From contig JAFDVL010000102.1 in NCBI GenBank assembly GCA_018268995.1, positions 21,696-85,695 of the forward strand: a stretch of 64,000 nucleotides of DNA. The letters are read 5' to 3'. Below the pieces are notes generated by a model. It ran no database searches. It saw only the letters and a list, made by a program, of their open reading frames with translations, and was not told where the DNA came from. This DNA is from Acidobacteriota bacterium (GTDB taxonomy: Bacteria > Acidobacteriota > Blastocatellia > RBC074). Shown here piece after piece: positions 34,896 through 58,924 of the stretch (position 1 is its first letter; each line of letters begins with the position of its first letter). A program made the position numbers and the translations under genes.

Positions 34896-34984
34896 AATTC
34901 CTCCTGGGTGAGGGGGAGAGTAACAAGGCAAGCGCGGCAGTAACCAGACTGTAAAGCTTGTCATTACCTAGTTTTTTGCACGCA

Positions 34985-35206
34985 CACAGCCCGCGAAGCG
35001 GGTGGTAGCATAAAGCCTGGGGTGCAACCCCAGGTAACATCGGGTTCGGACACATTAGCCCGCGAAGGCGGGCGATAGCTCACGTGGTTGGCGGAGCAGC
35101 TATCGCCTGCTCCGCAGGCTAGGCCTGATGGCCACATTTTTCCTGGGGTTACGGCTCTCGCCTTCACCCCAGGCTTTACTCGGACGCCCGCCTTCGCGGG
35201 CTGGCA
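34985..35206. repeat. GC-rich cluster of at least seven hairpins with internal symmetry; candidate structured ncRNA or REP/MITE-like element.
   Basis: Hairpins GCCCGC-GAAG-GCGGGC occur three times (34988-35003, 35057-35074, 35184-35204). CCTGGGG...CCCCAGG occurs twice (35016-35034, 35142-35173). Central stems GATAGCT...AGCTATC and GCGGAGCAG-CTATCGC-CTGCTCCGC are also present. The 18-mer AGCCCGCGAAGGCGGGCG has its reverse complement about 110 nt downstream. Confidence 0.5.
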
Positions 35207-35302
35207 AACGAAACGCATCAACAAAAAATGACAAGCTGTAAAGGAGGGCGTTTTATTTAGCGTTACGCCCACCTTCACAGTCGGGCTACTGCCTTATTTG
35301 TA

Positions 35303-37714
35303 CTATTTCTTTTTCCGATTCGCTTTCCCGCGTTCCTCGCATTCACGCAGCATGTCAGTGATGCGTTGGCGTTCATCGGCGGGCAGACGCGGGCCGTAAA
35401 TCGCGAGTCCTTTGCGTAAGGCTTCAGCGGCTTTGGTGTATTCCTGATTCACATAATTTGCCTGATACAAAATTGTGTACAGTTCAAATTTGTCTCCGGC
35501 CAATTCTGCATTCGGCATGGCATCGGCTAGTTTCAATGCCGCTTCAGCATCCTTCAAGGCTCGTGCATTATCCCCTTTGAGGAAGGCGTTATCTGCGCTC
35601 AGCCAGAGCGAGAGGAACAGGCGCATCTTATCGGGTAAATTCTGGGCCAGCTGTAAGGACTGGTTGATATTCAAACGCCCCTTATCAATGTAACTCATTC
35701 GCACGGCATCCGGCAGCTTGCTTTCTTCCCAGCCTGCATACCGAGTGTAGGCCTTGCCAAGGATGTAATTCGATTCGGCCAGCGCAGCATCATCGGCATA
35801 TCGAGCACCACCGAAAATGACGTGCGAAATGGACATGAACTTCGCGGCTTTCAGCAACGAGACTTTTTTCTTGGCCACTTCATTGAAGAGTTGCAGCGCG
35901 GTTTCTGCCTGCTCGACCGCCTCTTTCCAGGGCACGGCATCTACTTCCTTGCCCAGATCAATAAACTTCGCTGCCGGGTCTTTTGACAGCAGAACGTGGG
36001 CCAGAATCATGTGCGCAGGAGGAAATTTTGGATTGATGCCGATGGCTTTGCGCAGGGCTTTTTCCGCTCCGATTTTGTCACCACGAGCAAACAAGACATC
36101 ACCAAGAACGACATACGCAAAGTCATACAGCGGGTAACGCTTGTTGATGGCGCGCAAATCGTTGATGACTTCTTCAGTGTTGCGACCCGCATTAAATTTG
36201 GCTTCGGCGAGCAGCGTCTTGGTTTGGTAATCAGTCGGACGAACTGCCAGCGCTTCACTAAAGCTCTTGATCGCATCTTCCTTCATCCCCAGCGATTGCT
36301 CTGCGCGGCCACGATAGGTAAAGGCCTGATGATAGCCGCCGCCATTGATGCGAATGGCGTCATTGAAAATGGCAATTGCTTCCCGATATTTTTGCTTATT
36401 GAATAGATCAACGCCTTCCTGCAATTTCTTCTCAGCGTCTTTGGTCGGCGTTTTTTCATCGGTCAGATAAATCTGTTTCTGCTGCGTCGTAGATTCGACA
36501 ACTGCTTCCTGATCGCTTTGTGTGAAGGCGGCATTGATCTCATAAGCAGTCGTTTGGTTAGGTTTCACTTCGGCGGGTTGCGTTTGCTGCTTTCCGCCCT
36601 TTGCCAACGTTAGATTTCGCAATCCCACCGGAACGCGAATGGTTCGCTGGCTCCCTGAAGTAAGCGTTCCGACGGCTTTGCCATCCACAGAAACCGTCAC
36701 ACCATCCACTTCTGGATTTGTGATGCGCAAGGTTCCACACGGCGAATCTGCGCTGCATTTTCCAACTTCGGGATAAGACACCACAGAAAGCGGCAATTGA
36801 TTTGCGCTCAGCATCGTCGTGGCATATTGCGGATGCTGGCGATTGTTCGTCATCTTTGGCACTTCATCACGAACGTATGTGCGCAACTCTTCAAAGGTTA
36901 CTTTGCCATCTGCATCAAAATCCGCATTGCCTTGCACGGCTTCGAGCAGACAATAAGTAAAAACACCGTGACCCAGTTCATCTTTTTCCATCGAAGATTC
37001 ATTTTGATCCGCCGCAGACAAATAGCCGATGCCGCGCGGAATGCCTTCCAGCTCTTTCAGCCATTGGTTCTGCGCACGTTGTGTCACTGCCAGTCCGCGC
37101 GAACCACTATCCAACATTACGCCCGCGCTGTGGCAGGTATCGGAAATCACCAGTCCTTTTTTGGCAGGGATGCTGTTTACGGTACGCTTGAAAGTTTCCA
37201 TCCGCATTCCAGATTTTGAAATCGTGCGTGGGTCGGTGTCATAAAGCACAAAGTATGGATATTCCTCGGTTCGTCCCGAAGCTCCTTTTTCCTGCCAGAT
37301 CACGCCGTGGGCCGCAATGAAAACCACAAAGTAATCATCCGGTTTGGATTGTTTCAGCTTCTCCAGTGAGGCTTCGATATTGGCTTTGGTGGCTTGTTCA
37401 TCCACCAGCAGAGAGATATTGGATTCAGGGAAATTGCCGCCTTCATTGCTGCGCAGGAACTTATAAATTTCCGTCGCATCTTCTGCGGCATTTTTCAGAT
37501 TGGAAATTTGATTTCCATCCACATTTTGATCGCCGAATTTATACCGAGAAACGCCAATCACCACTGCCCATAAATTCACATTGCGATTGGCTGCGGCATC
37601 CTCTTTGGTCGCTCCCACCTTGATCGTTAATCCACGATCTCGTGTTTGGGCAATGGCAAGGAAAGTGACGGCACTTAGAAGAATTGTGAGGCTAAGATAA
37701 GAGAGGCGATTCAT
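35303..37714 (-). CDS. Secreted caspase (peptidase C14) domain protein with a C-terminal array of TPR repeats.
   Basis: Signal peptide MNRLSYLSLTILLSAVTFLAIAQ. The caspase His/Cys dyad is FIAAHGV ... ISDTCHSAGV. There are multiple TPR units in the C-terminal 450 aa. Confidence 0.8.
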   Translation of the reverse strand: MNRLSYLSLTILLSAVTFLAIAQTRDRGLTIKVGATKEDAAANRNVNLWAVVIGVSRYKFGDQNVDGNQISNLKNAAEDATEIYKFLRSNEGGNFPESNISLLVDEQATKANIEASLEKLKQSKPDDYFVVFIAAHGVIWQEKGASGRTEEYPYFVLYDTDPRTISKSGMRMETFKRTVNSIPAKKGLVISDTCHSAGVMLDSGSRGLAVTQRAQNQWLKELEGIPRGIGYLSAADQNESSMEKDELGHGVFTYCLLEAVQGNADFDADGKVTFEELRTYVRDEVPKMTNNRQHPQYATTMLSANQLPLSVVSYPEVGKCSADSPCGTLRITNPEVDGVTVSVDGKAVGTLTSGSQRTIRVPVGLRNLTLAKGGKQQTQPAEVKPNQTTAYEINAAFTQSDQEAVVESTTQQKQIYLTDEKTPTKDAEKKLQEGVDLFNKQKYREAIAIFNDAIRINGGGYHQAFTYRGRAEQSLGMKEDAIKSFSEALAVRPTDYQTKTLLAEAKFNAGRNTEEVINDLRAINKRYPLYDFAYVVLGDVLFARGDKIGAEKALRKAIGINPKFPPAHMILAHVLLSKDPAAKFIDLGKEVDAVPWKEAVEQAETALQLFNEVAKKKVSLLKAAKFMSISHVIFGGARYADDAALAESNYILGKAYTRYAGWEESKLPDAVRMSYIDKGRLNINQSLQLAQNLPDKMRLFLSLWLSADNAFLKGDNARALKDAEAALKLADAMPNAELAGDKFELYTILYQANYVNQEYTKAAEALRKGLAIYGPRLPADERQRITDMLRECEERGKANRKKK

Positions 37715-44401: not shown

Positions 44402-44496
44402 ATGGTTGACAAGTTCGCAGCTGAATGCGATAAGCTGCGGTGAGGTTAACTCCCAACAAGATAAGCGAGATTTTCCTTCGAAAACAGGAGGCCCCG

Positions 44497-45270
44497 ATGA
44501 CGATGGAAGAAAATTATAGCTTGCAACGACTACTTACCTTGAGAAAGCTGACGCGCGCGATTACAGAACTTTTGCGCGGGCAAATGAAAGAGCATTTGAC
44601 GACAATCGCACCGTTGTTACGTCCTAAAACTGTTCTTGGTGAATATATCAAAAGCAGTACACGCGAAATGACGCCGGGTGCGAATTTAGCTTTTAAAGAC
44701 CTGCAAACTCTATACGAAACCGTCGCAGCCAACAAACCTTTTCTTTTAGCAAAAGAATTAGATTCTTCGCTGGACATCATGAACACCACCATTGAAATCA
44801 CGCCGATGGAATATAGCTATGAAGCGCAGGCCGAAAATCATCGGAAAGTGATTTCAATCACCTCTCCGCTCAAAAACATATTGACCTATTCGGGGTATGG
44901 GCCAACGAAGCTCAAAGAGTTGCTGGCGGATCGGTATCGTCAGCCGGAAAAAGTGCAGGAATACATTGTGCATTATTTAGCCCTGCACGTCACGATTGCG
45001 CGGCAACCGGGACTTTCTCAGATGTTGTCGGCACTGCACTTTCCAATCACCACGATTCGCTTACCCGAATTTGGCGAATTGCCAATTACCTGCATCAACT
45101 CCTCTATCAGTACGATTCGCCCCTCTGATCCGGTCTTAATTGAAAGTACCGAGTTTTCGGGACTGGACGCTTTTGAAGAAGTCGTCAATGTGACAGACAT
45201 CGCGAATTTGCAGGATTCTCTCAAAGAACGATTGCGTGAAATAGCCAAAAACCACGGCGAAAATCTTTGA
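44497..45270 (+). CDS. Hypothetical protein.
   Basis: ATG at 44497 preceded by AGGAGG. I recognise no motifs. Confidence 0.45.
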   Translation: MTMEENYSLQRLLTLRKLTRAITELLRGQMKEHLTTIAPLLRPKTVLGEYIKSSTREMTPGANLAFKDLQTLYETVAANKPFLLAKELDSSLDIMNTTIEITPMEYSYEAQAENHRKVISITSPLKNILTYSGYGPTKLKELLADRYRQPEKVQEYIVHYLALHVTIARQPGLSQMLSALHFPITTIRLPEFGELPITCINSSISTIRPSDPVLIESTEFSGLDAFEEVVNVTDIANLQDSLKERLREIAKNHGENL

Positions 45271-45276: not shown

Positions 45277-45573
45277 TCACCCGATCATCACCGTCATTTC
45301 TCCCATCACGATATTGCCCCCGTGAACGGTTGTATCTCCGATCCGAGCAGCAGGCATAAAGCCAATCATGACCGTCATTGACCCCATCGCGATTACATCC
45401 GGCGGCCCAACACAGGTTGCCATATCGCCAACGCGGGCAGCGGGCATAAAGCCGATCATGACCGTAGGACAACACGGCGGCAAAATTGGGCCTCCGACGT
45501 GTGGCACGGGTGGCGTGCCGGGGGTGACCATGGGGCAAACATGCATATCACCTAATCTGGCTGCTGGTGGCAT
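45277..45573 (-). CDS. PAAR-domain protein (type VI secretion spike tip), minimal form.
   Basis: Three PAAR motifs: MPPAARLGD, GFMPAARVGD, GFMPAARIGD. Conserved Cys/His is present (HVCP, PPCCP). 98 aa with no C-terminal extension. Confidence 0.9.
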   Translation of the reverse strand: MPPAARLGDMHVCPMVTPGTPPVPHVGGPILPPCCPTVMIGFMPAARVGDMATCVGPPDVIAMGSMTVMIGFMPAARIGDTTVHGGNIVMGEMTVMIG

Positions 45574-45584: not shown

Positions 45585-46484
45585 TTACAACTCTCGCATC
45601 GCCTTCGTTACTGCCTGTCGTTGTGAGGCATTCAAAGACACTTTTTTCAAAGCTGTGGTGCCAATCTTTTTCAGCAACCGACGTGCTTCACTTGTCAGCG
45701 GTTGACTATCTGGTGTGGGAACATTCGCATCAACGCGATACCAGTCTTGTGGACGATAATCGAAAAGCGATTCGACTAAATGCGGGCGTAATTGTTTTGG
45801 CAGCGTGGTCGTCAAAATTCGATCCAGGCTCGCCAATAACACAGGATTGCGGCGATGTTGCACGATCGCCTCGTGCATCCAGGCAATCTTTTGCTCCGGC
45901 GCGATGGTGGCATCCACCATCCGTTTTTCTAATAATCCAATTGCCGGAGCCGTGCCATTATCAGCCAAAGCATCAATCACAAACTTGATGTGAACGGAAT
46001 CAGGATCGCTGTGGGTTTCCCAAAATTTCAGCACTTCAGCCGTAGGAGGTCGTACGATTGCCAGAGCCTTGATGAGCATCGTGTCGCAGGCATCACAATT
46101 TATCGGCTTCCCAGACCGCACCAAGGCCGCCAGCGTTTCCCGCATTGGAGCCGAGTCATTGCCGCGTATCGTTTGATACAACTGAGCCAGCCGCAGTTTA
46201 TTGACGGGTTTGCGAATATGATCTTCGCGAGGATCAAGCCGATAGATGGCTTCGATTGACGAGAGAAATTCCAGAAGCTTTTTTTGTTCTTGAGAATTCG
46301 TGCTGGCAGCAAGCTTTTGCATCTCCTGCAAAAGTGAATCTGGATTCTGGGAAGAAGTCGTTGGCGTGACTGTCCCAGCTGCGGCTTTTTCGGCCTCTGA
46401 CGCGACAAGAGTTGATCGTCCTTCGCAGGCGAAAAACAAGAGCATTGAAATTATCGGGCCGGCCCAGATCATTCGGCAGTTCAT
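45585..46484 (-). CDS. Hypothetical secreted protein or lipoprotein, paralog A of the downstream gene.
   Basis: Signal peptide MNCRMIWAGPIISMLLFFAC. It shares blocks with 46501-47292 (HSDPDSVHIKFVIDALADNGTAPAIGLLEKRMVD vs HSTPDSIHLHFTIDALCKNGTDPAIALLERKMID; LRLAQLYQTIRGNDSA vs LRIARIFKVLMMNDSA). Confidence 0.6.
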   Translation of the reverse strand: MNCRMIWAGPIISMLLFFACEGRSTLVASEAEKAAAGTVTPTTSSQNPDSLLQEMQKLAASTNSQEQKKLLEFLSSIEAIYRLDPREDHIRKPVNKLRLAQLYQTIRGNDSAPMRETLAALVRSGKPINCDACDTMLIKALAIVRPPTAEVLKFWETHSDPDSVHIKFVIDALADNGTAPAIGLLEKRMVDATIAPEQKIAWMHEAIVQHRRNPVLLASLDRILTTTLPKQLRPHLVESLFDYRPQDWYRVDANVPTPDSQPLTSEARRLLKKIGTTALKKVSLNASQRQAVTKAMREL

Positions 46485-46500
46485 GAGTGGTTCTCAGGAT

Positions 46501-47292
46501 TTACTTAATCAACAAATCCACTTCCGTCAGCGTAATATCAACAGCGACCTTTTCCAGTGGCTTTAATTCCAAATTAGCTTTGGCGTATTCACAAATTGCC
46601 CGCAACTCTTCCAGGGCTTCATTGAAGGCAAGGGCGCGATCCGGTGGAACAGGAACATCGCAGGATTTGTACCATTCTTCCTTGCGATAGGCGCATAAGG
46701 CTTCGACTAATGATCCTTTTAATTCAGGGTCTAAACTGGACTGCAACAGGCGATGACAACCACGCAGCAGTGGGAGATCGTTGCGATGCGACAGGATTGG
46801 GCCGCGCATCCACGCCAGCTTGTAATCCACTTCCTGCTCTGGATCAATCATCTTTCGCTCAAGCAAAGCAATGGCGGGATCAGTGCCGTTTTTGCACAAA
46901 GCGTCAATCGTAAAGTGCAAATGAATCGAATCCGGTGTGCTGTGCGCATCCCAGTATTGAACCGCTACGGACGGAGCGGGCCGAACCGCAGCCAGTGCTT
47001 TGACCAGCAGTTCTTCGCGTGCATCTGAGTCCTTAAATGTGGGCACCTGCGTTAAGGCCACCAGGGTTTGATGGGCTGCCGCAGAATCATTCATCATCAA
47101 GACCTTAAAGATGCGGGCGATGCGCAGTCTTTTGGGAGAGAGAGCAATGTAATCTTCACGCGAATCTATCCGGCTTAAGTAATCCGCAGAACTCAAGGCC
47201 GACAACAGCATAGACTGTTCATTTGGAGTCTTACCGTTGGCCCAGCCGACGGCTTGCCTGACTAATTCCTGCGGAGTTGGTTCATTGGCCAT
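46501..47292 (-). CDS. Hypothetical cytoplasmic protein, paralog B of 45585-46484.
   Basis: No signal peptide (MANEPTPQELVRQAVGW...). It shows paralogy as described for 45585-46484. Confidence 0.6.
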   Translation of the reverse strand: MANEPTPQELVRQAVGWANGKTPNEQSMLLSALSSADYLSRIDSREDYIALSPKRLRIARIFKVLMMNDSAAAHQTLVALTQVPTFKDSDAREELLVKALAAVRPAPSVAVQYWDAHSTPDSIHLHFTIDALCKNGTDPAIALLERKMIDPEQEVDYKLAWMRGPILSHRNDLPLLRGCHRLLQSSLDPELKGSLVEALCAYRKEEWYKSCDVPVPPDRALAFNEALEELRAICEYAKANLELKPLEKVAVDITLTEVDLLIK

Positions 47293-47312: not shown

Positions 47313-49154
47313 CTATGCTTTATCCTTCAAGCCGGGATGTTTGCGCACCGTGATCGTTTGAATCAAGTCAGCATCCAAGCCGCGCCGGACGTCATACCCC
47401 ATCACATTTTCGCGCCACGGATGACCACGCTTTTTCCCTTTGTCATCCACACTGTTGACGTCATCGTCCGAGAGCTTGAATCCGGTCGCAACGTTATTTT
47501 CCCCACCGCTGCCACGATGAAATAATCCCAGAATGTGGCCTATTTCGTGCGCCATATTTTGCCCCGAATCATGTTCCGGTGCTCCGACCGTCCAATCGGA
47601 AGGATAGATCACCCCAAAGAGCCGTTTCTTCAGGTCATCCGAAGAGAAACTCGCTTGCACTTTTTTGCGCGCCTTGACATAAGCCGCATCCGAAGAATTT
47701 GAGCGGTTCTGATGCGAAAAGGATTTCATCTTCACTTTCTTTGCTGCGGCATCCGGTAGGACGCCACTAGGTAAAACCAATGACGTGCTGGGAAAACCAT
47801 CTAATTCTTCCGTCTTCCCTGAGACGCTTTGCAAGTCGGTCGCAGCGGCATTGGTTCCGGTGGTGGAACGGACAAAGGCAACATTGAGAACACTGGGGTT
47901 GAAATTCAAGCGCGTCGCAATCGGGGAGACATTATTATTCACGTTCACCGTCCAGTTATCTTTTTCCGCTGTCACCGTGAAGATTCCTTTATTTGCCGAA
48001 GCTACAGCATTATCCCAAGTCGTAGCATCAGGATCAGGAACAAATTCAATGCCGCATTGCCACCAGATAATCTGAGCAACCTGCATAAAATGAAGGACAT
48101 CGCTTGGCGACACCGTCGGGCTACGTTCTGGATGATTTGTCTTGTCTACGCCATTGATAATGTTGATGCGATAACGAATTTCTTTGATAACGCCGACCCA
48201 AGCGCGATACGTTGCCAGCAATGGGCCTTTTTCACCATCCCAACGTGCTTCAATCACCGCCATTTTATCGGTCGGAGCAGATGTGCCTCGCACCTTTACC
48301 CAAATGCCCTGATTGGAACCGACGAATTCAATCGGGCCTTCTTTGATGTGCCAGGTCACTTTGCTGACCTCTAAATCCCCCGGCCAAACCCAAGTGATTG
48401 CAATCTTCGCCGCTTTGGTTTCCAAATCAGGATCGCTTTTTTTCAAAACTGGAATCAGAGAAGGATTCACCAAGATATTCCAAGCCATATCAGGGGTCAG
48501 CGTGATGGCTTTGGCAAATTCAGTTTCCTTGCCGGGTTCCAATTCGGCTTTCAACGCTTCGATGGCGGCAGGACGGGGCGGCAATTTGCTCGGAGAAATG
48601 GGGACGGGAACAACGGGACAGACTTCAATTCTTGGCTCAACCGCTTTGCCTGAAATTGTTGTGAATGTGCTGCTGCCATTATTCTGCCGACTGACCAGGA
48701 TACCCTTGGTTTTGTCTGGCGTGGTGGTCGCTTTGACTTCCAACTGCTTGACGGTCACGTAGGCTTGAAAATACTGATGATCAGGAAAAAACAGCCAGCC
48801 TTTGATAACTGAGGAGGAAATCGGGAAGTCTGTGTATTCGTTGGTGAAGGGATATTTCAGCGTTAGTTTTGCTTCGCCCAAATCGTCATCGCTGAAGACA
48901 TCCACATCAATTCCCTTGATGGAAATTTCGATCTTGTCACCAGGCTTCTTATTTGTCAGATCAAGTTCGACTGACCATTTATCTTCCGGCAACTTGATCG
49001 TGTCTTTATCGCGCACCTCAAATTCATGATTGGGATCACCAACTGTTTTCCCGTCCACCTTGGCGGTTAATTTCCATTCTCCAGCACCAATGATGTCGCC
49101 GCTTTCATTCGCGTAGACTTTATTGAATGTTACTTTGATCTTCGTTACTGGCAT
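47313..49154 (-). CDS. Metzincin-type zinc metalloprotease domain protein; candidate T6SS cargo effector.
   Basis: 613 aa with no signal peptide. Near the C-terminus are the extended zinc motif HEIGHILGLFH (HExxHxxGxxH) and a Met-turn-like NVMGY about 40 aa later. The N-terminal 450 aa is β-rich and of unknown fold. Confidence 0.65.
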   Translation of the reverse strand: MPVTKIKVTFNKVYANESGDIIGAGEWKLTAKVDGKTVGDPNHEFEVRDKDTIKLPEDKWSVELDLTNKKPGDKIEISIKGIDVDVFSDDDLGEAKLTLKYPFTNEYTDFPISSSVIKGWLFFPDHQYFQAYVTVKQLEVKATTTPDKTKGILVSRQNNGSSTFTTISGKAVEPRIEVCPVVPVPISPSKLPPRPAAIEALKAELEPGKETEFAKAITLTPDMAWNILVNPSLIPVLKKSDPDLETKAAKIAITWVWPGDLEVSKVTWHIKEGPIEFVGSNQGIWVKVRGTSAPTDKMAVIEARWDGEKGPLLATYRAWVGVIKEIRYRINIINGVDKTNHPERSPTVSPSDVLHFMQVAQIIWWQCGIEFVPDPDATTWDNAVASANKGIFTVTAEKDNWTVNVNNNVSPIATRLNFNPSVLNVAFVRSTTGTNAAATDLQSVSGKTEELDGFPSTSLVLPSGVLPDAAAKKVKMKSFSHQNRSNSSDAAYVKARKKVQASFSSDDLKKRLFGVIYPSDWTVGAPEHDSGQNMAHEIGHILGLFHRGSGGENNVATGFKLSDDDVNSVDDKGKKRGHPWRENVMGYDVRRGLDADLIQTITVRKHPGLKDKA

Positions 49155-49187: not shown

Positions 49188-49925
49188 TTAGCTGCCGTGC
49201 AATTGTTTCAACTTATCCTTCGTGGCGGCATCAATCTTTCCGGTGACATCTAATTCATTGTTCTGCTGGAACATTCGCAAGGCCGAAGCTAAGTCATCGG
49301 TTAGCTCATCGCCTGTTGAAGCGCAAGGAAAGCCCAAATTGGATAAGCGCATTCGCACCCCGGAAATTTCAGAGATGGGGTCCATGCCACCCAGATTCAA
49401 AGGTAATACACGCTCTTCCGGCGTCCCTGGGCGAATAACCAACCGACCTTCGCGTGCATTTGGCGGCAGTTCAACCTCAATCTGCCCCTCGCCATCTGTT
49501 GAGCCCTCTTTCACCACTTTGCCGTCTATTTCCAGACGAAAGGGAGCATTCTTGACAGGTTCATCTTGAATTGGTTCCGGGTTGTAATCCGGGTCTTCGA
49601 CGTGAGAACCATCGTCTGCACCCGTAGCATTTTCTTCCGCTGGTTTATCCTCTGCTTTGGGCGGTTCCATCACTTTGAGTTTGAGCTTGGCTGGAACGCC
49701 TTTGATCTTGAATTTATGCTTTTGATCAGTCGCACAAGATTCTTCTTTCAGTTCCTTGTCGGGGATGAACAGGACATCGCCTTCTTTGAGAATATTAGGA
49801 TCAGTGCGTTTCTGTTTCAGCTCTGCATTTTTAGGATGATTCCAGAGCGTTTCCCAGAAGAAGCCGCGATCAAAAGCGATGCTGCTGACGCAATCTCCGG
49901 GTTGGATAACATACTCTTCAGGCAT
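49188..49925 (-). CDS. LysM domain + peptidoglycan-binding (PG_binding_1-like) domain protein.
   Basis: The N-terminus YVIQPGDCVSSIAFDRGFFWETLWNHPKN...LKEGDVLFIP is LysM. The C-terminus GVRMRLSNLGFPCASTGDELTDDLASALRMFQQNNELDVTGKIDAATKDKL is PG-binding-like. It starts 22 nt after the vgrG stop. Confidence 0.65.
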   Translation of the reverse strand: MPEEYVIQPGDCVSSIAFDRGFFWETLWNHPKNAELKQKRTDPNILKEGDVLFIPDKELKEESCATDQKHKFKIKGVPAKLKLKVMEPPKAEDKPAEENATGADDGSHVEDPDYNPEPIQDEPVKNAPFRLEIDGKVVKEGSTDGEGQIEVELPPNAREGRLVIRPGTPEERVLPLNLGGMDPISEISGVRMRLSNLGFPCASTGDELTDDLASALRMFQQNNELDVTGKIDAATKDKLKQLHGS

Positions 49926-49947: not shown

Positions 49948-52278
49948 TCAGGCTTTTGTCCAGGCTTCTTTATCCAAATCGGGGAAGGTCACTTTGCAAC
50001 TGCCCGGATCAATACCGGCAACAAGAGCATAGCCTTTTTCATCCAGTGTGCCTTCCGCCAGAGTTTGTCCATCGGGCAACGTGACACGGTAGCGCAGCCC
50101 CGGAACAGGCTTGCCATCTTCATTCACGACCTCAATTTCGATCTTGGATTTCTTTTCTTTGTTCTCTTCAGAGTTGGGATTATGCGAGGGCGCATTCGCC
50201 GCAGCTTGTTCTGATGCGGATTTGGCCTGCCATTGCTGTTTGTACGTTGGCGCTTTGTCGCCCGGATCAGCATTGTCGGCAATGTCAGCTTCAGCAGGTG
50301 CGGTGGGCGAAACCAACATTCCAGCCATTCCGGGCAAAGCAGCACCACCACTGTTGATCATCACCATCGTGCCTTGAATAAAGACGCCTGCCGGAAGCAA
50401 GGTAATAAAATTGCCGCCGCATTTCAGCGTCAGGCCGCTGCTGGATTCGATGACAACCTGCATCCCCTTAACGTAGATGTTGCCAGTCGTGGATTCAGTG
50501 TGATTGCCAGAAATTTCCTCTGTCACATTGCCTTTGACGGCGACAGATTGCGCCCCAGTGATTTCAATAGCCTCTTTGCCTTTAATTTTCAAGTGATGAT
50601 CACGGCCAATTTCTTCGACTTGATCTCGTTTGATAACGATTTGCTGATCACGTTCGATCAGCTCTTTTTGGTCGCGCTTGACGATTAAATGGGTGTCGCG
50701 GCCAATCCATTCGCGGCGATCATTTTTGACGCGCAAGTCCATGTCCTTCTCGGCATGCATGAACAATTGCTCATCGCCTTTTTTATCTTCCATCCGAATT
50801 TCGTTGAAGCCGCCACCGCCCTTGGAAGAATAGGTTTTGACGGTACTCTTGGTCATTTCATCGGGCAGTTTGTAAGGCGGCATGGAATCCGCGTTATAAA
50901 CGCGTCCCACGATAATCGGACGATCTGGATCACCTTCCAGAAAATCTACGATGACTTCCTGCCCGATGCGTGGCAGCGAGATTTGCCCCCATCCTTTTCC
51001 GGCCCACGTCGTAGACACGCGAATCCAGCAGGAACTCATGGCATCGTATTTCCCTTCCCGATCCCAATGGAATTGCACTTTCACGCGTCCGTACTTGTCA
51101 GTGTAAATTTCTTCGCCCGGCGGGCCGACAACGATGGCTGTCTGCGAACCAGCGACGACGGGAACCGGGGTAATGCGCGGTGAGCGAAATGGCGTCGGGT
51201 GCTGGATACATTGAAACGAATTGTAATAACTCAGCGTTGTCTCCCCCGCATCCGAGCTGCGCCAGCTTTCGCCTAGATCGGCGGAATGTTGGATTGAGGT
51301 CAAAACATACGCCTTGTTAAAGTCGCGACGATAGTGATCGCGAAGGTCAAATCTGTAGCCCGTGACTAAACCTCGACAGGTGCTTGCGCCGTTCACGACA
51401 ACTTGTGGCAAATCTTCTTCCTGAATACGAATGCCAACCAGACGCTCGCCTTCATCTTTGGTCTTGTATTCACCGGGATAATCGTAAATTTCCAATTTAC
51501 TCTCGCCCTTACCGGACAGATTTGATGTCAGATCAAGGCCAGGGTTTTCAAAATTGAAATCGCGGACTGTGTATTGACCGGGCCGAACCTCACGGCTCAT
51601 GGTGAAATCTGTGATGACATCTTCGTCGCGTTCCTGCCCGATGACCGTTTTGTAACTGACCATATCCTGCAACGGGCAAGGTTTGAATTCATTGGCGTTG
51701 TTGGCAAGGATGAGGGTGTGTTTTTCTTTTTCGTGCTCGAAGAAGTAAAAGATGCCTTCTTCTTCCATCAGGCGCGAGACAAAGTTGAAATCCGTTTCGC
51801 GGTACTGCACGCAGTATTCGCGTTTGGCGAAGTTGCCTTGCAGCTTGTTTTTGAAATCGGCAAATCCGTTGTCCTTGAAAATCTTCTCGAGAATTTCAGG
51901 CACGGTCATTTCCTGAAAAATACGGCAATCACTGGTTCGCGTCAGCATCCAGAACCAGGGCACCAGCGAGGCAGAATAATGCGTGAAAACAGTTGGCTTG
52001 TCGCCTTCTTCCAGCGTGGAAGAGCCGCCCTGCGAAAAGGAACTGATCAAACCATTGATGAATCGTTCAGAGCCGTCTGGCAAGACAATCGCGATGGTGG
52101 CGCGCTTGCCAACAATGTCTTCAAATTTGATGCTGCGATTTTCCGACATCAGCCGCAGACTGAAATGGAAGAGTCGCGAAATTCCTTCCTGCCCATCGAA
52201 TCCCTGCAACAACAATTCGTCCTCGCCCAGCGGCGTGTAAATGCGAATGATGCGATTTTCCTGTTTATATTCTGGCAA
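49948..52278 (-). CDS. vgrG: Type VI secretion system spike protein VgrG.
   Basis: The N-terminus ENRIIRIYTPLGEDELLLQGFDGQEGISRLFHFSLRLMS is the canonical VgrG/gp27 start. Length is 776 aa. The start is TTG at 52278 with an AGGAGG RBS. A C-terminal extension of about 70 aa follows a Lys/Glu-rich linker. Confidence 0.9.
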   Translation of the reverse strand: MPEYKQENRIIRIYTPLGEDELLLQGFDGQEGISRLFHFSLRLMSENRSIKFEDIVGKRATIAIVLPDGSERFINGLISSFSQGGSSTLEEGDKPTVFTHYSASLVPWFWMLTRTSDCRIFQEMTVPEILEKIFKDNGFADFKNKLQGNFAKREYCVQYRETDFNFVSRLMEEEGIFYFFEHEKEKHTLILANNANEFKPCPLQDMVSYKTVIGQERDEDVITDFTMSREVRPGQYTVRDFNFENPGLDLTSNLSGKGESKLEIYDYPGEYKTKDEGERLVGIRIQEEDLPQVVVNGASTCRGLVTGYRFDLRDHYRRDFNKAYVLTSIQHSADLGESWRSSDAGETTLSYYNSFQCIQHPTPFRSPRITPVPVVAGSQTAIVVGPPGEEIYTDKYGRVKVQFHWDREGKYDAMSSCWIRVSTTWAGKGWGQISLPRIGQEVIVDFLEGDPDRPIIVGRVYNADSMPPYKLPDEMTKSTVKTYSSKGGGGFNEIRMEDKKGDEQLFMHAEKDMDLRVKNDRREWIGRDTHLIVKRDQKELIERDQQIVIKRDQVEEIGRDHHLKIKGKEAIEITGAQSVAVKGNVTEEISGNHTESTTGNIYVKGMQVVIESSSGLTLKCGGNFITLLPAGVFIQGTMVMINSGGAALPGMAGMLVSPTAPAEADIADNADPGDKAPTYKQQWQAKSASEQAAANAPSHNPNSEENKEKKSKIEIEVVNEDGKPVPGLRYRVTLPDGQTLAEGTLDEKGYALVAGIDPGSCKVTFPDLDKEAWTKA

Positions 52279-52288: not shown

Positions 52289-53416
52289 CTAATTCGTCAA
52301 TTCAAAATGATGCAGATCCACGTTGGCTGAATAAAACGTCGCGCCCCAACGAAACTTGTGTTTGTGTAATTGTTCCAGCAAACTCCACTCCAGCGTAAAG
52401 AAACCCTGTTTCCAGGCAATTAGCTTTGGAGCCTTTGCCAGCAAGACTTCAAGGGGTTCCGACCGCTTCGGGATAGGCTTTCCAGCGGCTTTCAATTTCT
52501 CATCTTCCTTCTGACGCTCATCCTGGATTCGTTTCAACTCGGATGCGACCTTTTTGACAAACTCATCGTTCACGTCTTTGACATCTTTCCACATCGCCTG
52601 TGGACTGGTGTTCCATCGCGTCAGACTCAAATCAACTTTCGCCTTCCCGGTAAACTCAATCAGAAAATCCCACTCCGCCTTCGATAGAATTGGATTGCTC
52701 AGAGATTCAATGTCAATCGCATTGCCGATGGCATGTTCGCTGATTGTGCCCAGACGATAGCGATAACCGCTGTCCTTCATTGGACGTGGATTGAATCCGC
52801 CTGTTTTGAACGGCTTGTCATACGCAACACGAACTTTGGCAAGTGCCGCTTTGAGTTCTGCTGAATTTCCACGCAGGATCAGCTCTGACACATCGTTGAC
52901 GCCTTTTTTTTGATAGGCCTTTCGCACCCAGCGGTAGAAAACTTTTTGCGCCTCCGGGTTCTCTCCCATCTCAATCAATTTGCGAAGGCCTTTTGTGGAT
53001 TCCAATTCCGTATCCGACTCGTAGGAGTAATCTTCATACTCAGCGGCGGAGCCAAAATACTCGTTCCGATAGGCAATATAATCATCCACATTCTTGAGGT
53101 TGATTTTCCCCTTCAGCAACTTGAATTCTGATTCCTCTGCTGCCCGAACCAGCGCTTTCCGCATTGCGCGAAAGATAATCATTTGCAATGGATCATCCGC
53201 AGTGAACTCAGGGCAGGGCAAGGTTTCCCAACTCAACCGAAGGCGATGGTGCGGATCGGCCAAATCTTTCATGCCCACCGAACCTGGCGTATCACCAAGC
53301 AAAAGGCGTGGCGCATCGGGATTGCCAAAATCGTTGTGGCCAAGTGGTCCCGGCGTAAGGGGCGAAAGCTTGAATGGGTCGCGGCCACAGGAAATGATGT
53401 TGCGTGAGTTCCCCAT
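52289..53416 (-). CDS. Peptidase M15 (VanY/L,D- or D,D-peptidase) domain protein; candidate peptidoglycan-targeting T6SS effector.
   Basis: M15 zinc motifs are ISEHAIGNAIDIE (SxHxxGxAxD) and the C-terminal KFRWGATFYSANVDLHHFE (WGG...D.xHFE). There is no signal peptide. The N-terminal extension of about 200 aa is unknown. Confidence 0.65.
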   Translation of the reverse strand: MGNSRNIISCGRDPFKLSPLTPGPLGHNDFGNPDAPRLLLGDTPGSVGMKDLADPHHRLRLSWETLPCPEFTADDPLQMIIFRAMRKALVRAAEESEFKLLKGKINLKNVDDYIAYRNEYFGSAAEYEDYSYESDTELESTKGLRKLIEMGENPEAQKVFYRWVRKAYQKKGVNDVSELILRGNSAELKAALAKVRVAYDKPFKTGGFNPRPMKDSGYRYRLGTISEHAIGNAIDIESLSNPILSKAEWDFLIEFTGKAKVDLSLTRWNTSPQAMWKDVKDVNDEFVKKVASELKRIQDERQKEDEKLKAAGKPIPKRSEPLEVLLAKAPKLIAWKQGFFTLEWSLLEQLHKHKFRWGATFYSANVDLHHFELTN

Positions 53417-53995
53417 CTATGCGCCCTCCTGCTTAGATGGAAACTGTTGATGATGCAAAAACACCCGCAAATCTGAAGCGGAGAAAAATACTAATCGCAC
53501 TTCTTTAATCTGATCATCGCTGGCCAAAAACGAGGCGATAGCTTTCGATGAAACAGCGGCAGCCTCTTCGCGGGGATAGCCGTAAACACCTGTCGAAATC
53601 GCAGGAAAAGCGATGGATTCCAAGCTATTCTCTGCCGCTAATTTCAGCGAGTTGTGATAGCAGGCAGCCAGATAAGCTGCATCCTGTTCACCGTGTCTGC
53701 CTTTGATCGGGCCAACGGTGTGAATGACAAACCGTGCAGGCAAATTTCCAGCAGTTGTCAGTACGGCATCTCCGGTCGGAAGCCCATCTGGGAAGCGTGT
53801 CTGGCGGATTTCCTGACACGCTTCCAGAATGGATGGCCCACCGTTTCTGTGAATTGCACCGTCCACCCCACCACCACCCATCAATGTCCAATTCGCAGCA
53901 TTCACGACAGCATCAACGGCTTGTGCCGTGATGTCGCCTTGCAATGCAATGACGCGACCGGAGAGAAATGAATGGGTTGTTTGTGGCGATTGCAT
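53417..53995 (-). CDS. Macro-domain protein (ADP-ribose binding / O-acetyl-ADP-ribose deacetylase-like, YmdB type).
   Basis: GDITAQAVDAVVNAANWTLMGGGGVDGAIHRNGG ... FPAISTGVYGYP are the classic macro-domain motifs. The stop is directly adjacent to the ATG of the M15 gene (TAGATG). Confidence 0.85.
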   Translation of the reverse strand: MQSPQTTHSFLSGRVIALQGDITAQAVDAVVNAANWTLMGGGGVDGAIHRNGGPSILEACQEIRQTRFPDGLPTGDAVLTTAGNLPARFVIHTVGPIKGRHGEQDAAYLAACYHNSLKLAAENSLESIAFPAISTGVYGYPREEAAAVSSKAIASFLASDDQIKEVRLVFFSASDLRVFLHHQQFPSKQEGA

Positions 53996-56730: not shown

Positions 56731-57591
56731 TTATTTTTTCGGCGGCGCATACGTCGAAAGTGGGTACGCCTTCAGCCCAAAGGTTTCCGGGCTTTCTGCC
56801 AAGATGGCAGCGGCAAAGAACCTGGGCAGATAATGAACCCCTTCGTCTAAAAAAGCCTTGTCGAATTTCTTGGCGTCTGGCTTCGCTAAGATCGCCCAGA
56901 GTTCACCGCCTGAGTCGTGCTCTTTAATCAATTCAGCAAAATCGCGTTTTACATTTGCAGTGCCACGGTTGTACGCAAGCATGGCCAGCGCGGCGGAGAT
57001 GCCATCCTTCCCAAATTCCGCCATTCGCGCTTTGATAAATCGAGCCGCCGCGTTTGCCCCTTTCTCGACATCGCAAAGGGCATCCGCTTTTACGCCTAAA
57101 CTTGTGGCAGATGCTGGCAGGATGGCAAACATCCCTTTCCCTTTGCCCTTCGCAGGGCAGGGTTGGAATTCGGATTCCAACAACGCAACCGCATTCCCTA
57201 ACGTTTCCAGGACTTTCTCTTTTTCAAACTCACCATTGATAATAGGAGCATATTGCACCGCACGCTCAAAGACTTTGTTCAGGTCTTCACCGCCCGACTT
57301 GGGATCAGCAGCGCCAACGCGTACGGCATAGACATCAACCCATTTTTTGATCAACTGGACGCCTTCTGCTGAAACCACCAAAGGCTTTTCAGGGGATAAC
57401 ATCCAACCAAGATTTCCCGCGTAATTTGAGATAAAACTGGCCCGTGCCTGGTCATTCATTTTCAAATACTGTGATGCGCCACTTGTTGCAGCCTCTGAGG
57501 CTTTGGGCGCTGAGGTATTGCTTTGGGCGAGGATCGGCATGGCTAAAAACAGCAGTGAGGTTAGCATGACCGATGGGATTAACTTCTTCAT
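56731..57591 (-). CDS. Secreted lytic transglycosylase (SLT-domain) protein.
   Basis: Signal peptide MKKLIPSVMLTSLLFLAMPILAQS. SLT-like motifs are LLESEFQPCPAKGKGKGMFAI (ES-x-F...G-LMQ variant) and LAMLAYNRGTANV (AYNAG-like). Confidence 0.55.
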   Translation of the reverse strand: MKKLIPSVMLTSLLFLAMPILAQSNTSAPKASEAATSGASQYLKMNDQARASFISNYAGNLGWMLSPEKPLVVSAEGVQLIKKWVDVYAVRVGAADPKSGGEDLNKVFERAVQYAPIINGEFEKEKVLETLGNAVALLESEFQPCPAKGKGKGMFAILPASATSLGVKADALCDVEKGANAAARFIKARMAEFGKDGISAALAMLAYNRGTANVKRDFAELIKEHDSGGELWAILAKPDAKKFDKAFLDEGVHYLPRFFAAAILAESPETFGLKAYPLSTYAPPKK

Positions 57592-57604
57592 TTTTCCTGA
57601 CTCC

Positions 57605-58924
57605 TTATCGTTTGACGAAATAAAAATCTCCATCAAGGGAGGTATTTTCCCAGGGCACTTGTTGACCATTTGTTTTTTCTTTAACTGCAATTCGGGTTCG
57701 TTTCAGTACTTCTTCTACTTTTAAATTCGGCTCGCGCATGTGCCTTAATAATTCCTGCGTGTACAGACCATTTTTCCCATCGCCATCGCTGGCAACTTCT
57801 CCTGGCCCCGTGGCATAAGCCACAACGGTTCCACTTGGTGCCGACATCACCGCGAGTCCACGTGAAAGTGAGCGCGTACGTTGCACAAAAGGGTTGTTGC
57901 GACAGGCGTCCAGAATCACGATATTCAAACGGCTCCCAGCAGATTCCAATTCGTTCATGATCCGGCCTGCATCCACGGCTTCATATTCGGCATCGCCTTC
58001 CTTTTCAATCTTTGCTCCGACAGGAACCAGATAATTTACGCCTTTGACCTGAATTCCGTGTCCCGCAAAATAGAACAAGGCCACGCTGCCGCGCTGTATT
58101 TTATTGCCAAACGCGCGCAGGCTTTCTTCCAGTTCGCGTTTGTTCAGGTTGGTATATTGCATGACCTCAAAACCTGTTTCACGCAGGGATTGCGCCATCG
58201 CATTAGCATCGTTAGCAGGATTCGCCAACGGGCCAACCTGATAGTTGCTATTCCCGATCACCAAAGCCAGACGATTTGTGCTACTGATTTCATTGACCGA
58301 GCTGGATGAAATGCCCGAATTTGTGACGACAGTTGAATTCCCGTCACTGCGAGCAGGCGTACTGACAGCAGGATTCTCATTCGGCTTCTTTTCCGGCGGC
58401 AGAACAGGCCCGGTCGGCTGATTTGTATTGTTGCGGACGGGTGGATTTGTCGGCGCAGTATTTTTGCTAATGATTACTGGCCCTTTCACTTTCAAAGTAA
58501 AAAAGCCGCTTTGGTTGTTGCGCGGGCCAAAAACGCGCATGAGCACATTTTGACGAGTGTCCAGTCGAAGTTTTGCATCCTTCCGGTCTCCACCGGAGGA
58601 AGCATCAAACTTGATCAGTGTTTGTGCATCAGCATCCAGAATTTCGACGCCGATGTTTGACCATTGCTCATTGGTTTTCACCTCAAGAGAAAAACTGACA
58701 TCGCCCGGCCCGGCGGTAAAAGTATAGAAGCGGTTGATGGAAACATTCGGAGCAATATTCCCTTTCAATTCCTGATTGAACAATGGCATGGGATTATCTT
58801 TGCTGCTTGGTTGTGCAAACACCAGTTGAGCGACACAAAGACAGCCCAATGCAATCCAACGCAACCTGCAAGACAATCGGTTTGCGCTGTTGGAACTTCG
58901 ATGTAAGGCGTTCAATAATTTCAT
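57605..58924 (-). CDS. Secreted caspase-family (peptidase C14) protease with an N-terminal β-sandwich pre-domain.
   Basis: Signal peptide. The caspase His/Cys dyad is ALFYFAGHGIQ ... IVILDACRNNPF. It lies inside the T6SS operon. Confidence 0.8.
   Translation of the reverse strand: MKLLNALHRSSNSANRLSCRLRWIALGCLCVAQLVFAQPSSKDNPMPLFNQELKGNIAPNVSINRFYTFTAGPGDVSFSLEVKTNEQWSNIGVEILDADAQTLIKFDASSGGDRKDAKLRLDTRQNVLMRVFGPRNNQSGFFTLKVKGPVIISKNTAPTNPPVRNNTNQPTGPVLPPEKKPNENPAVSTPARSDGNSTVVTNSGISSSSVNEISSTNRLALVIGNSNYQVGPLANPANDANAMAQSLRETGFEVMQYTNLNKRELEESLRAFGNKIQRGSVALFYFAGHGIQVKGVNYLVPVGAKIEKEGDAEYEAVDAGRIMNELESAGSRLNIVILDACRNNPFVQRTRSLSRGLAVMSAPSGTVVAYATGPGEVASDGDGKNGLYTQELLRHMREPNLKVEEVLKRTRIAVKEKTNGQQVPWENTSLDGDFYFVKR

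What the first reader, a model, noticed from the sequence alone, without database searches (positions are those of the whole stretch)
45585..47292. Tandem paralog pair, one with a lipoprotein-type signal and one cytoplasmic, between the metzincin and PAAR.
The two about 270-aa proteins share several long conserved blocks but differ in localisation signal. This could be a duplicated immunity protein specialised for two compartments. It could also be an immunity protein plus an adaptor or chaperone for the metzincin or the PAAR.
Basis: seen in the sequence. Interest (0 to 1): 0.55.

Follow-up and report, generated by a model that had tools for sequence, protein, structure and literature searches.

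The report
Two-compartment partner pair for T6SS protease
Next to a protease toxin of a bacterial type VI secretion "harpoon", an Acidobacteria genome encodes two old, related helical-repeat proteins, one kept in the cytoplasm and one exported as a lipoprotein; they most likely neutralise the toxin in both compartments, an arrangement no experimental study found in the paper searches describes.

Summary
ORF A (46501-47292, 263 aa, no signal peptide possible) and ORF B (45585-46484, 299 aa, lipobox LFFAC, Cys20) are 37% identical over 253 residues (E 6e-54). They lie in one tightly packed minus-strand gene row: VgrG, PG_binding_1 protein, 613-aa metzincin, A, B, PAAR, inside a T6SS cluster of an Acidobacteria MAG.

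Both belong to an un-named family (no Pfam or NCBIfam model; 508 representative clusters). The AF2 model shows a HEAT/ARM-like alpha-solenoid (pLDDT 95).

The order metzincin, signal-less copy, signal- or lipobox-bearing copy recurs in 15 distinct loci, including an orphan cassette in Methylomonas. One locus has only the signal-less copy. The signal-less copies form one clade, so the duplication is old. Both copies diverge together with the metzincin's catalytic half, and B changes about twice as fast as A.

Best reading (inferred, not shown): both bind and inhibit the metzincin. A would act in the producer's cytoplasm and B in the periplasm. A could also, or instead, serve as a loading chaperone. 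A conserved Cys in a Pro-rich loop marks the cytoplasmic forms and hints at a cysteine-switch-like contact with the zinc (speculative).

This is a new variant of effector-immunity organisation, of moderate interest.

The parts
46501..47292 (-). Paralog A: 263-aa signal-less (cytoplasmic) HEAT/ARM-like alpha-solenoid protein. Proposed cytoplasmic inhibitor and/or chaperone of the metzincin.
   Evidence: ORF. An in-frame stop lies directly upstream of the ATG. AF2 model has pLDDT 95.2 and 17 helices. Foldseek returns only generic ARM/alphaRep/PUF repeat proteins. No Pfam or NCBIfam family matches. Residues invariant only in the A type are H126 and C211.
45585..46484 (-). Paralog B: 299-aa predicted lipoprotein (lipobox LFFAC, Cys20) of the same family. 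Proposed periplasmic immunity protein.
   Evidence: ORF. Lipobox pattern match. 37% identical to A. B orthologues carry a lipobox or signal peptide in all 14 other loci. It changes faster than A: dN is about 2x, and B is more diverged than A in 65 of 66 locus pairs.
47313..49154 (-). 613-aa metzincin effector candidate: N-terminal C2-like beta-sandwich (about residues 1-140), disordered linker, a beta domain, and a C-terminal catalytic domain with HEIGHILGLFH and Met585.
   Evidence: Sub-threshold Pfam M10, M12B and M43 hits. Invariant H536, E537, H540, H546 and M585. The family profile matches serralysin/protease C in the PDB, E 1.6e-4. AF2 pLDDT 85. Foldseek probability 1.0 to C2 domains. 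Some homologues carry a fused PG_binding_1 domain.
49188..49925 (-). 245-aa protein with a C-terminal PG_binding_1 domain. It is a constant companion of the effector cassette.
   Evidence: PF01471, E 3.3e-7. It sits upstream of the metzincin in every locus read, and upstream of unrelated effectors in L005, L006, L014 and the P0183 locus.
49948..52278 (-). VgrG spike protein with a C-terminal transthyretin/CarboxypepD_reg-like extension.
   Evidence: Phage_GPD, Phage_base_V and Gp5_trimer_C match; CarboxypepD_reg matches weakly at residues 713-765. The same C-terminal sequence ends a 295-aa protein in Methylomonas. It also occurs as free-standing 124-134-aa proteins in L013 and L014.
45277..45573 (-). 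98-aa PAAR spike-tip protein, last gene of the row.
   Evidence: PF05488, E 1.2e-21. A strong AGGAG lies 6 nt before its ATG, 11 nt after the stop codon of B.

Best explanation
A and B are two ancient paralogs of an un-named HEAT-like helical-repeat family. Both serve as specific binding partners (immunity-type inhibitors) of the catalytic domain of the adjacent T6SS-delivered metzincin, and they divide the work by compartment.

A stays in the cytoplasm. There it would bind the freshly made protease, which has no conserved disulfide pair and so could fold and be active there. [quoted passage not shown] It would also protect against toxin that reaches the cytoplasm.

B is exported and lipid-anchored. 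It would neutralise protease injected into the periplasm by sister cells.

Shown here: the paralogy, the different targeting signals, the helical-repeat fold, the conserved gene order, and the co-divergence with the protease. Inferred: binding, inhibition, and the compartment where the protease is toxic.
For: (1) The paralogy is real and covers the full length.

(2) Targeting differs. A cannot carry a signal peptide. B has a lipobox or signal peptide in the window and in 14 other loci.

(3) The order metzincin, A, B holds in 15 distinct loci, with metzincin identity to the window copy falling to 38-44% (P0215, P0209, P0214). These include cassettes with no T6SS core genes in the DNA read (Methylomonas L001, L016). 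Neighbouring cassettes with other effectors carry only one or no downstream gene. The double partner is therefore specific to the metzincin.

(4) The A copies form one clade, so the duplication is old and both copies have been kept. A is the more conserved copy, so it is not decaying.

(5) Between the window and L004 the flanking genes stay similar: VgrG 91%, PAAR 85%. The cassette genes diverge much more: metzincin 67% (mostly in the catalytic half), A 59%, B 38%. Across 12 loci, A and B distances follow the catalytic half better than the N-terminal half. Partial r is 0.71 and 0.56 against 0.38 and 0.13.

(6) The fold is a confident alpha-solenoid. HEAT-repeat immunity proteins are a recognised class (PMC3482391).

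(7) The metzincin has only one conserved Cys and hence no obligatory disulfide. Relatives fused to PG_binding_1 point to a cell-envelope site of action.

(8) Metzincins of the serralysin group, the closest solved relatives, are known from established knowledge to be paired with dedicated periplasmic inhibitors (Inh/AprI).
Against: No binding, inhibition or toxicity data exist, and no complex prediction could be run.

The compartment in which the metzincin is toxic is unknown. Most periplasm-acting T6SS effectors need no cytoplasmic immunity.

The co-divergence measures come from 12 non-independent loci and would also arise from simple linkage.

L015 has only the A-type copy, and the most distant metzincin locus (P0223) has a single 319-aa downstream gene that could not be read.

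In the wider family, signal-bearing and signal-less forms are interspersed in a poorly resolved tree. One remote member is a fusion of two copies behind a single signal peptide. The split is therefore not a universal rule of the family.
Confidence: 0.5

Rival explanations
1. Immunity plus an immunity-derived chaperone/adaptor. B would be the only true immunity protein. A would be a cytoplasmic paralog re-used to stabilise the metzincin and hand it to the VgrG (TTR extension)/PG_binding_1/PAAR spike complex, and inhibition would not be its selected function.
For: There is a precedent. P. aeruginosa Tla3 (PA0259) is a cytoplasmic adaptor homologous to the immunity protein TplEi/Tli4, and it bridges Tle3 to VgrG2b (PMC6560169). 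A is more conserved than B, as expected if it must also fit conserved machine parts. A is always the first gene after the effector. L015 keeps A but not B.
Against: A matches none of the known adaptor families DUF4123, DUF1795, DUF2169 or DUF2875. The cassette already carries constant candidate connector parts: the TTR-like domain and the PG_binding_1 protein. A diverges with the catalytic half of the effector rather than with VgrG or PAAR. This reading is not exclusive of the best explanation.
Confidence: 0.3
2. Redundant duplicated immunity genes. A would be a copy that lost its signal peptide and is neutral or decaying, like the tandem immunity duplicates common at T6SS loci.
For: Tandem paralogous immunity genes are frequent. 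Examples are TsiP1/TsiP2 (PMC9927574), Tli1/Tli2 of Aeromonas (PMC7245790), and Tli1a/Tli1b, where Tli1b is a probable pseudogene.
Against: A is intact in all loci and forms an old clade of its own. It is more conserved than B: dN is about half, and A is less diverged than B in 65 of 66 locus pairs. It also has its own invariant residues. In the published duplicates both copies carry signal peptides.
Confidence: 0.03
3. Neither protein is an immunity protein. The two HEAT-like proteins could be accessory or co-delivered factors, for example target-binding subunits or regulators of the protease, or partners of the PG_binding_1 protein.
For: There are no functional data. Alpha-solenoids serve many roles. 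The effector's C2-like domain could point to a eukaryotic target, in which case immunity would be unnecessary.
Against: Their position directly downstream of the effector, the exported copy, the cassette-specific divergence against conserved flanks, and their absence from cassettes with other effectors all match effector-immunity logic.
Confidence: 0.12

Closest known systems
T6SS effector-immunity modules with tandem paralogous immunity genes (P. aeruginosa TseL-TsiP1/TsiP2, Aeromonas Tle1-Tli1/Tli2; from memory also PldB with PA5086-5088)
   Same: There are two homologous genes next to a VgrG-linked effector. The immunity candidates are helical-repeat or small binding proteins. The exported copy is a lipoprotein or periplasmic protein.
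   Different: In the published cases read here both copies carry signal or lipoprotein peptides. Here one copy is always signal-less and the other always exported, and this split is conserved across 15 loci. The protein family itself is un-named.
Tle3 / Tla3 (PA0259) / Tli3 (PA0261) of P. aeruginosa H2-T6SS
   Same: A cytoplasmic protein with an immunity-type fold sits alongside a periplasmic immunity protein for one VgrG-loaded, periplasm-acting effector. The VgrG carries a TTR-type C-terminal extension.
   Different: Tla3 and Tli3 are not paralogs of each other. Tla3 resembles the immunity protein of a different effector and has two DUF2875 domains. A and B have no DUF2875. The effector there is a lipase, not a metzincin.
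Imm-HEAT immunity proteins of polymorphic toxin systems (Zhang et al. 2012, PMC3482391)
   Same: All-alpha HEAT-type repeat proteins encoded next to toxins and predicted to neutralise them by binding.
   Different: Those were linked to other toxins (Ntox34, Tox-REase-7). A and B reach only sub-threshold HEAT_2 scores, in 5 of 21 members with best E 0.0011. No two-compartment pair was described there.
Serralysin-type metzincins with periplasmic inhibitors (Inh, AprI, SmaPI); MMP/astacin zymogen 'cysteine/aspartate switch' (from established knowledge)
   Same: A metzincin is paired with a dedicated producer-encoded inhibitor. Serralysin/protease C is the closest solved relative of the catalytic motif region. 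The A-type copies have a conserved Cys in an exposed Pro-rich loop, and exported copies most often have Asp at that column.
   Different: Inh/AprI are small beta-barrels in the periplasm only, whereas A and B are alpha-solenoids. The switch residues of zymogens lie in cis pro-peptides. Zinc ligation in trans by A or B is pure inference.

Membership tests
T6SS immunity protein (functional class) | Encoded immediately next to the effector in the same transcription unit | tested here: met
   Gaps are 20 nt (metzincin to A) and 16 nt (A to B) on the same strand, with no promoter or terminator signal above chance. The same order is found in 15 loci.
T6SS immunity protein (functional class) | Located in the compartment where the effector acts | tested here: inconclusive
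   B has a lipobox and A has no signal peptide. The effector's site of action is unknown. Homologues fused to PG_binding_1 suggest the cell envelope.
T6SS immunity protein (functional class) | Binds and neutralises the cognate effector | not testable with these tools
   No complex prediction or experiment was possible. The only support is indirect: co-divergence with the catalytic half of the metzincin.
HEAT/ARM-type alpha-solenoid (Imm-HEAT-like) | Stacked helical hairpin repeats | tested here: met
   The AF2 model has pLDDT 95.2 and pTM 0.90 with 17 helices. The best Foldseek hits are designed ARM/alphaRep, PUF and TOG repeat proteins, with probability up to 1.0 but E no better than 0.012 and TM below 0.5 when normalised to the query.
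HEAT/ARM-type alpha-solenoid (Imm-HEAT-like) | Match to a curated HEAT model above threshold | tested here: not met
   A and B have no Pfam hit at E up to 0.1. HEAT_2 matches only 5 of 21 family members, best E 0.0011. The family profile has no PDB sequence match at E up to 10.
Known T6SS adaptor/chaperone families (DUF4123 Tap/Tec, DUF1795 Eag, DUF2169, DUF2875 Tla3) | Match to the family's Pfam domain | tested here: not met
   No such hit for A, B or any of the 21 aligned members.
Bacterial lipoprotein (for B) | N-terminal basic residue, hydrophobic stretch, and a lipobox ending in Cys | tested here: met
   MNCRMIWAGPIISMLLFFAC matches the PROSITE PS51257-type pattern with Cys20. Orthologues have FACEG, QGACG, LAGLAC, LLLAC or LASC. 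The Methylomonas copy instead has a plain signal peptide without Cys.
Metzincin metallopeptidase (for the neighbouring effector) | HExxHxxGxxH zinc motif plus a downstream Met-turn | tested here: met
   H536, E537, H540, H546 and M585 are invariant in 39 homologues. The profile aligns the motif-to-Met-turn region with protease C/serralysin, E 1.6e-4. Pfam M10, M12B and M43 scores all fall below their gathering cut-offs, so it belongs to no curated subfamily.
Serralysin inhibitor family (Inh/AprI) | Small beta-barrel periplasmic inhibitor (Pfam Inh) | tested here: not met
   No Pfam hit, and the fold is all-alpha.
Cysteine-switch type latency (MMP pro-domain) | Conserved Cys in a PRCGxPD-like segment ligating the catalytic zinc | tested here: inconclusive
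   C211 in WYKSCDVPVPP is invariant in 12 of 12 A-type copies and absent from 11 of 11 B-type copies. Family-wide, Cys occurs there in 51 of 108 signal-less and 4 of 56 signal-bearing members (Fisher p 7e-8). The loop has no regular secondary structure in the model. The motif is not PRCGxPD, zinc ligation cannot be tested here, and general Cys avoidance in the periplasm is an alternative cause.

The most novel reading that the evidence does not exclude
The two paralogs are trans-acting, pro-domain-like inhibitors of one metzincin, each tuned to the redox state of its compartment. The cytoplasmic copy would insert an exposed Pro-rich loop (WYxxC..PxPP) into the active site and cap the catalytic zinc with a free cysteine thiol, a cysteine switch supplied in trans. 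The exported copy would use a carboxylate (Asp is the commonest residue at that column) or pure steric blocking, because a free thiol would not survive in the oxidising periplasm. This would be a new inhibitory principle for T6SS immunity. It would also explain why this effector family, unlike its neighbours, always carries two immunity genes.
Probability: 0.15. Interest if true: 0.75.

Novelty: new variant of a known kind. Interest (0 to 1): 0.55.

Why it matters
T6SS effector-immunity pairs are normally described as one toxin and one immunity protein placed where the toxin acts. A conserved pair of paralogs split between cytoplasm and periplasm would mean that some effectors, here a protease with no obligatory disulfide, must be controlled on both sides of the inner membrane. 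It would also show how a duplicated immunity gene can be re-targeted to a second compartment, or turned into a loading chaperone.

The finding also defines three linked, un-annotated families in poorly studied soil Acidobacteria: a C2-domain metzincin effector, its HEAT-like partners (508 representative clusters, no Pfam model), and a PG_binding_1/TTR connector set. A copy in a cultured Methylomonas strain could make the system experimentally accessible.

Tried and rejected
- **PDB sequence search.** The A1 profile found nothing in the PDB.
- **Metzincin fold search.** The full-length model search was dominated by the N-terminal C2-like domain, so the catalytic domain could not be placed by fold. 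Its placement rests on sequence motifs and the profile hit to serralysins.
- **Pattern-based locus scans.** Scans of genome contigs and metagenome contigs returned only 5 loci each. Large-scale statistics on pairing were therefore not possible.
- **dN/dS.** Synonymous sites are saturated even for the closest loci, so only dN and identity are used.
- **Family-wide tree.** The NJ tree of 164 representatives is star-like at depth. It cannot say whether there was one duplication or several outside the metzincin-linked subgroup.
- **Promoter and terminator scan.** Nothing above chance.
- **Literature.** Searches for a cytoplasmic-plus-periplasmic paralogous immunity pair, or for a metzincin T6SS effector, found no precedent. 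These searches cover open-access text only, so absence is not proof.
- **Rejected readings.** 'Low-complexity similarity' is rejected. 'A is a decaying duplicate' is rejected. 'A has a mis-called start hiding a signal peptide' is rejected because a stop codon lies directly upstream.
Full report
**Observation**

On the minus strand the window carries a tightly packed gene row:

| Gene | Coordinates | Size |
|---|---|---|
| VgrG | 49948-52278 | 776 aa |
| PG_binding_1 protein | 49188-49925 | 245 aa |
| HExxHxxGxxH protein (metzincin) | 47313-49154 | 613 aa |
| ORF A | 46501-47292 | 263 aa |
| ORF B | 45585-46484 | 299 aa |
| PAAR | 45277-45573 | 98 aa |

The intergenic gaps are 22, 33, 20, 16 and 11 nt. 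Shine-Dalgarno-like motifs precede A and PAAR. No promoter-like or terminator-like sites exceed chance.

Upstream on the same strand lie an M15_4 peptidase-like gene, a Macro-domain gene, ClpV, an SLT gene, a caspase-like gene, a CsgG-like gene, TssG and TssF. The pair therefore sits at the spike/effector end of a T6SS cluster. Exact look-up places the window in an Acidobacteria MAG (locus tags JST84_28185-28195), where all three genes are annotated 'hypothetical protein'. The closest loci elsewhere are Blastocatellia MAGs.

A and B are 37% identical (58% positives) over 253 residues with two gaps, E 6e-54.

B begins MNCRMIWAGPIISMLLFFAC, which fits the lipoprotein signal rule with Cys20. NCBI calls its start four codons later (295 aa), which keeps the hydrophobic core and the lipobox. 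A has an in-frame stop directly upstream of its ATG and cannot carry a signal peptide.

**What the proteins are**

Neither protein matches any Pfam or NCBIfam model. A word-indexed search found only 22 relatives. A profile search of 1.84 billion representatives found 508 clusters (422 at E up to 1e-10), so this is a real, sizeable and un-named family.

An AF2 model of A is very confident (pLDDT 95.2, pTM 0.90). It shows 17 helices stacked as a HEAT/ARM-like solenoid. Foldseek against the PDB gives only generic repeat proteins such as designed armadillo, alphaRep, PUF and TOG, with E no better than 0.012 and TM below 0.5 when normalised to the query. Five of 21 members give sub-threshold HEAT_2 hits. 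The fold says 'protein-binding scaffold' and nothing more specific.

**The neighbour**

The 613-aa protein has invariant H536, E537, H540 and H546, and an invariant Met585 in NVMGY. Its family profile aligns the stretch from the motif to the Met-turn with Erwinia protease C and Serratia serralysin (E 1.6e-4). Pfam M10, M12B and M43 scores stay below threshold. It is therefore a metzincin outside the curated subfamilies.

Its AF2 model (pLDDT 85) has these parts:
- an N-terminal beta-sandwich that Foldseek matches to C2 domains with probability 1.0;
- a disordered linker;
- a beta domain;
- the catalytic domain.

All 53 homologues found are unannotated. Three carry a fused PG_binding_1 domain, which hints at action in the cell envelope. 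The family has only one conserved Cys (C179, 90%), so it has no obligatory disulfide.

**Conservation of the pair**

I read the DNA of related loci and scanned stop-to-stop frames with the family HMM. In 15 distinct loci the metzincin (where the DNA reaches it) is followed first by a copy with no room for a signal peptide. A second copy follows whose N-terminus is a lipobox or signal peptide. The loci are the window, L001, L002, L004, L005, L007, L008, L009, L012, L013, L014, L016, L017, L019 and L021.

- In L007 the gene caller had missed the signal peptide by choosing a late start.
- The metzincin in these loci falls to 38-44% identity with the window copy.
- Two cassettes have no T6SS core genes in the DNA read. 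One is in Methylomonas sp. AM2-LC, next to IS and toxin-antitoxin genes. The other is L016.
- A further locus without DNA shows the same gene lengths, 278 and 322 aa.
- The one exception is L015, with a PG_binding_1-fused metzincin, an A-type copy only, and no T6SS genes nearby.
- Cassettes in the same arrays that carry other effectors have one downstream gene or none. The double partner is thus specific to the metzincin.

**Evolution**

In a tree of 23 paired sequences the A-type copies form one clade and the B-type copies lie outside it. The duplication therefore predates the spread of these cassettes.

B is more diverged than A in 65 of 66 locus pairs. Its dN is about twice that of A, and A changes at roughly the rate of the metzincin. 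Synonymous sites are saturated, so dN/dS is not usable.

Between the window and L004 the identities are as follows:

| Gene | Identity to L004 |
|---|---|
| VgrG | 91% |
| PAAR | 85% |
| PG_binding_1 protein | 80% |
| Metzincin | 67% (loss concentrated in residues 331-613) |
| A | 59% |
| B | 38% |

Across 12 loci the distances of A and B follow those of the catalytic half better than those of the N-terminal half. Partial correlations are 0.71 and 0.56 against 0.38 and 0.13. The pairs are not independent, so this is only directional evidence. This pattern of conserved machine parts around a fast-changing toxin domain and its partners is typical of effector-immunity modules.

**Type-specific residues**

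Twenty-one positions are conserved in both types, which suggests a shared core function. A-type copies have their own invariant H126 and C211 and near-invariant R60, R219 and R231.

C211 lies in WYKSCDVPVPP, a loop without regular secondary structure in the model. Across 164 family representatives, Cys occupies this column in 51 of 108 signal-less and 4 of 56 signal-bearing members (Fisher p 7e-8). Asp is the commonest residue there in the signal-bearing forms, 20 of 56.

This may only reflect avoidance of free Cys in the periplasm. Column 200 shows the same trend. It also allows a cysteine-switch-like reading, which I list as the novel case.

**Mechanism**

The best-supported explanation is that both paralogs bind the catalytic domain of the metzincin and that they split the task by compartment. 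A would hold the protease inactive, and perhaps stable, in the producer's cytoplasm. B, a lipoprotein, would protect the periplasm from protease injected by siblings. I give this about 0.5.

The main rival, at about 0.3 and not exclusive, is that A has become a loading chaperone or adaptor. The precedent is Tla3 of P. aeruginosa, a cytoplasmic adaptor homologous to an immunity protein (PMC6560169).

Against a pure adaptor role:
- A has no known adaptor domain.
- A tracks the catalytic domain rather than VgrG or PAAR.
- The cassette already has constant connector candidates. One is the transthyretin-like domain, which is fused to VgrG here, free-standing in L013 and L014, and forms the C-terminus of a 295-aa protein in Methylomonas. 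The other is the PG_binding_1 protein, which precedes several different effectors.

A decaying redundant duplicate is excluded by A's higher conservation. A non-immunity role cannot be excluded without experiments (about 0.1).

**Comparison with what is known**

Tandem paralogous immunity genes are common, but in the cases read here both copies are exported. HEAT-type immunity proteins are a recognised class. No paper found describes a metzincin T6SS effector, or a conserved pair of a cytoplasmic and a periplasmic paralog. These searches cover open-access text only.

I rate the finding a new variant of a known kind. The logic is standard effector-immunity. The new elements are a protein family without a name, a new effector family, and an unusual, conserved two-compartment split.

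**Limits**

Nothing here demonstrates binding, inhibition, toxicity, localisation or secretion. Signal peptides were judged by a pattern and a hydrophobicity script, not by a trained predictor. The set of loci is small and phylogenetically clustered, mostly Acidobacteriota metagenome bins.

Noticed in passing
window 49948-50180 (VgrG C-terminus); L001 6409-7296; L013 6875-7249; L014 6666-7070: The VgrG ends in a transthyretin/CarboxypepD_reg-like domain (...IEIEVVNEDGKP...FPDLDKEAWTKA). The same sequence ends a 295-aa non-VgrG protein upstream of the Methylomonas cassette. It also occurs as free-standing 124-134-aa proteins before each effector cassette in other loci. It looks like a movable connector between spike and cargo.
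   Followed up: partly
window 49188-49925; L005, L006, L014, L016 and the P0183 locus: A 223-265-aa protein with a C-terminal PG_binding_1 domain precedes not only the metzincin but also unrelated effectors (a Het-C-like 780-aa protein, a 745-aa unknown, a 461-aa unknown, a 1186-aa protein) in effector arrays. It may be a generic adaptor or a peptidoglycan-anchoring co-effector.
   Followed up: partly
window 47313-49154 (residues 1-140 and 172-186 of the metzincin): The effector has an N-terminal C2-like (lipid-binding type) beta-sandwich. It also has a 90%-conserved single Cys (C179) in a Pro-rich linker, PRIEVCPVVPVP, with invariant P180 and P183. This could be an internal cysteine-switch-like latency element. 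Not tested.
   Followed up: partly
L001 (Methylomonas sp. AM2-LC, CP157005.1, 1000097-1020915): A full cassette (TTR-ending protein, PG_binding_1 protein, metzincin 74% identical to the window copy, A, B with a plain signal peptide) lies in a gammaproteobacterium next to IS21/rve, RhuM and a TacA/acetyltransferase toxin-antitoxin pair. No VgrG or PAAR is within 10 kb. It is probably a horizontally acquired orphan cassette in a cultured strain.
   Followed up: partly
L015 8001-10937: A metzincin homologue fused to PG_binding_1 (706 aa) is followed by only a signal-less family member. There is no exported copy and no T6SS genes within 8 kb. This is the single exception to the pair rule.
   Followed up: partly
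L013 11536-12684; L016 7165-8340: A TPR-methyltransferase gene (382-391 aa) directly follows the A/B pair in two distant loci. A methyltransferase is also nearby on the opposite strand in the P0183 locus. Its meaning is unknown.
   Followed up: no
window 44440-45270 (+): A 276-aa ORF without any Pfam or NCBIfam match converges on the PAAR gene, with stops 6 nt apart. A 255-aa gene sits at the same place and orientation in L004 (12057-12824), but L008 has no such gene there.
   Followed up: partly
window 52289-53995; L002 3615-4957; L004 3017-4806: Between ClpV and VgrG lie a Macro-domain protein (192 aa) and an M15_4-like peptidase (375 aa). In L002 the peptidase slot holds a Glyco_hydro_19 protein instead. 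This may be a second, swappable cell-wall effector slot.
   Followed up: no
window 56731-59946: A CsgG-like lipoprotein, a caspase-like (Peptidase_C14) protein and an SLT transglycosylase are embedded between TssG and ClpV in the T6SS cluster. The caspase gene also appears upstream of ClpV in L002.
   Followed up: no
window 33292-37714: Downstream of the cluster lie a second caspase/CHAT-TPR protein (803 aa), a CHAP-domain protein (203 aa), and a Schlafen AlbA_2 plus restriction-endonuclease-like protein (322 aa). These are possibly further conflict or defence genes.
   Followed up: no
proteins P0143 and P0149 (remote family members): P0143 (605 aa) is a fusion of two family domains behind one signal peptide, so both copies would be exported. 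P0149 (565 aa, lipobox) has an extra 300-residue N-terminal region. The two-compartment split is therefore not universal in the wider family.
   Followed up: partly
window 45585-46484: The public annotation (MBS1812075.1) starts B four codons later (295 aa, MIWAGP...). That start removes the only basic residue before the hydrophobic core, so the upstream ATG at 46484 gives the better signal peptide.
   Followed up: yes
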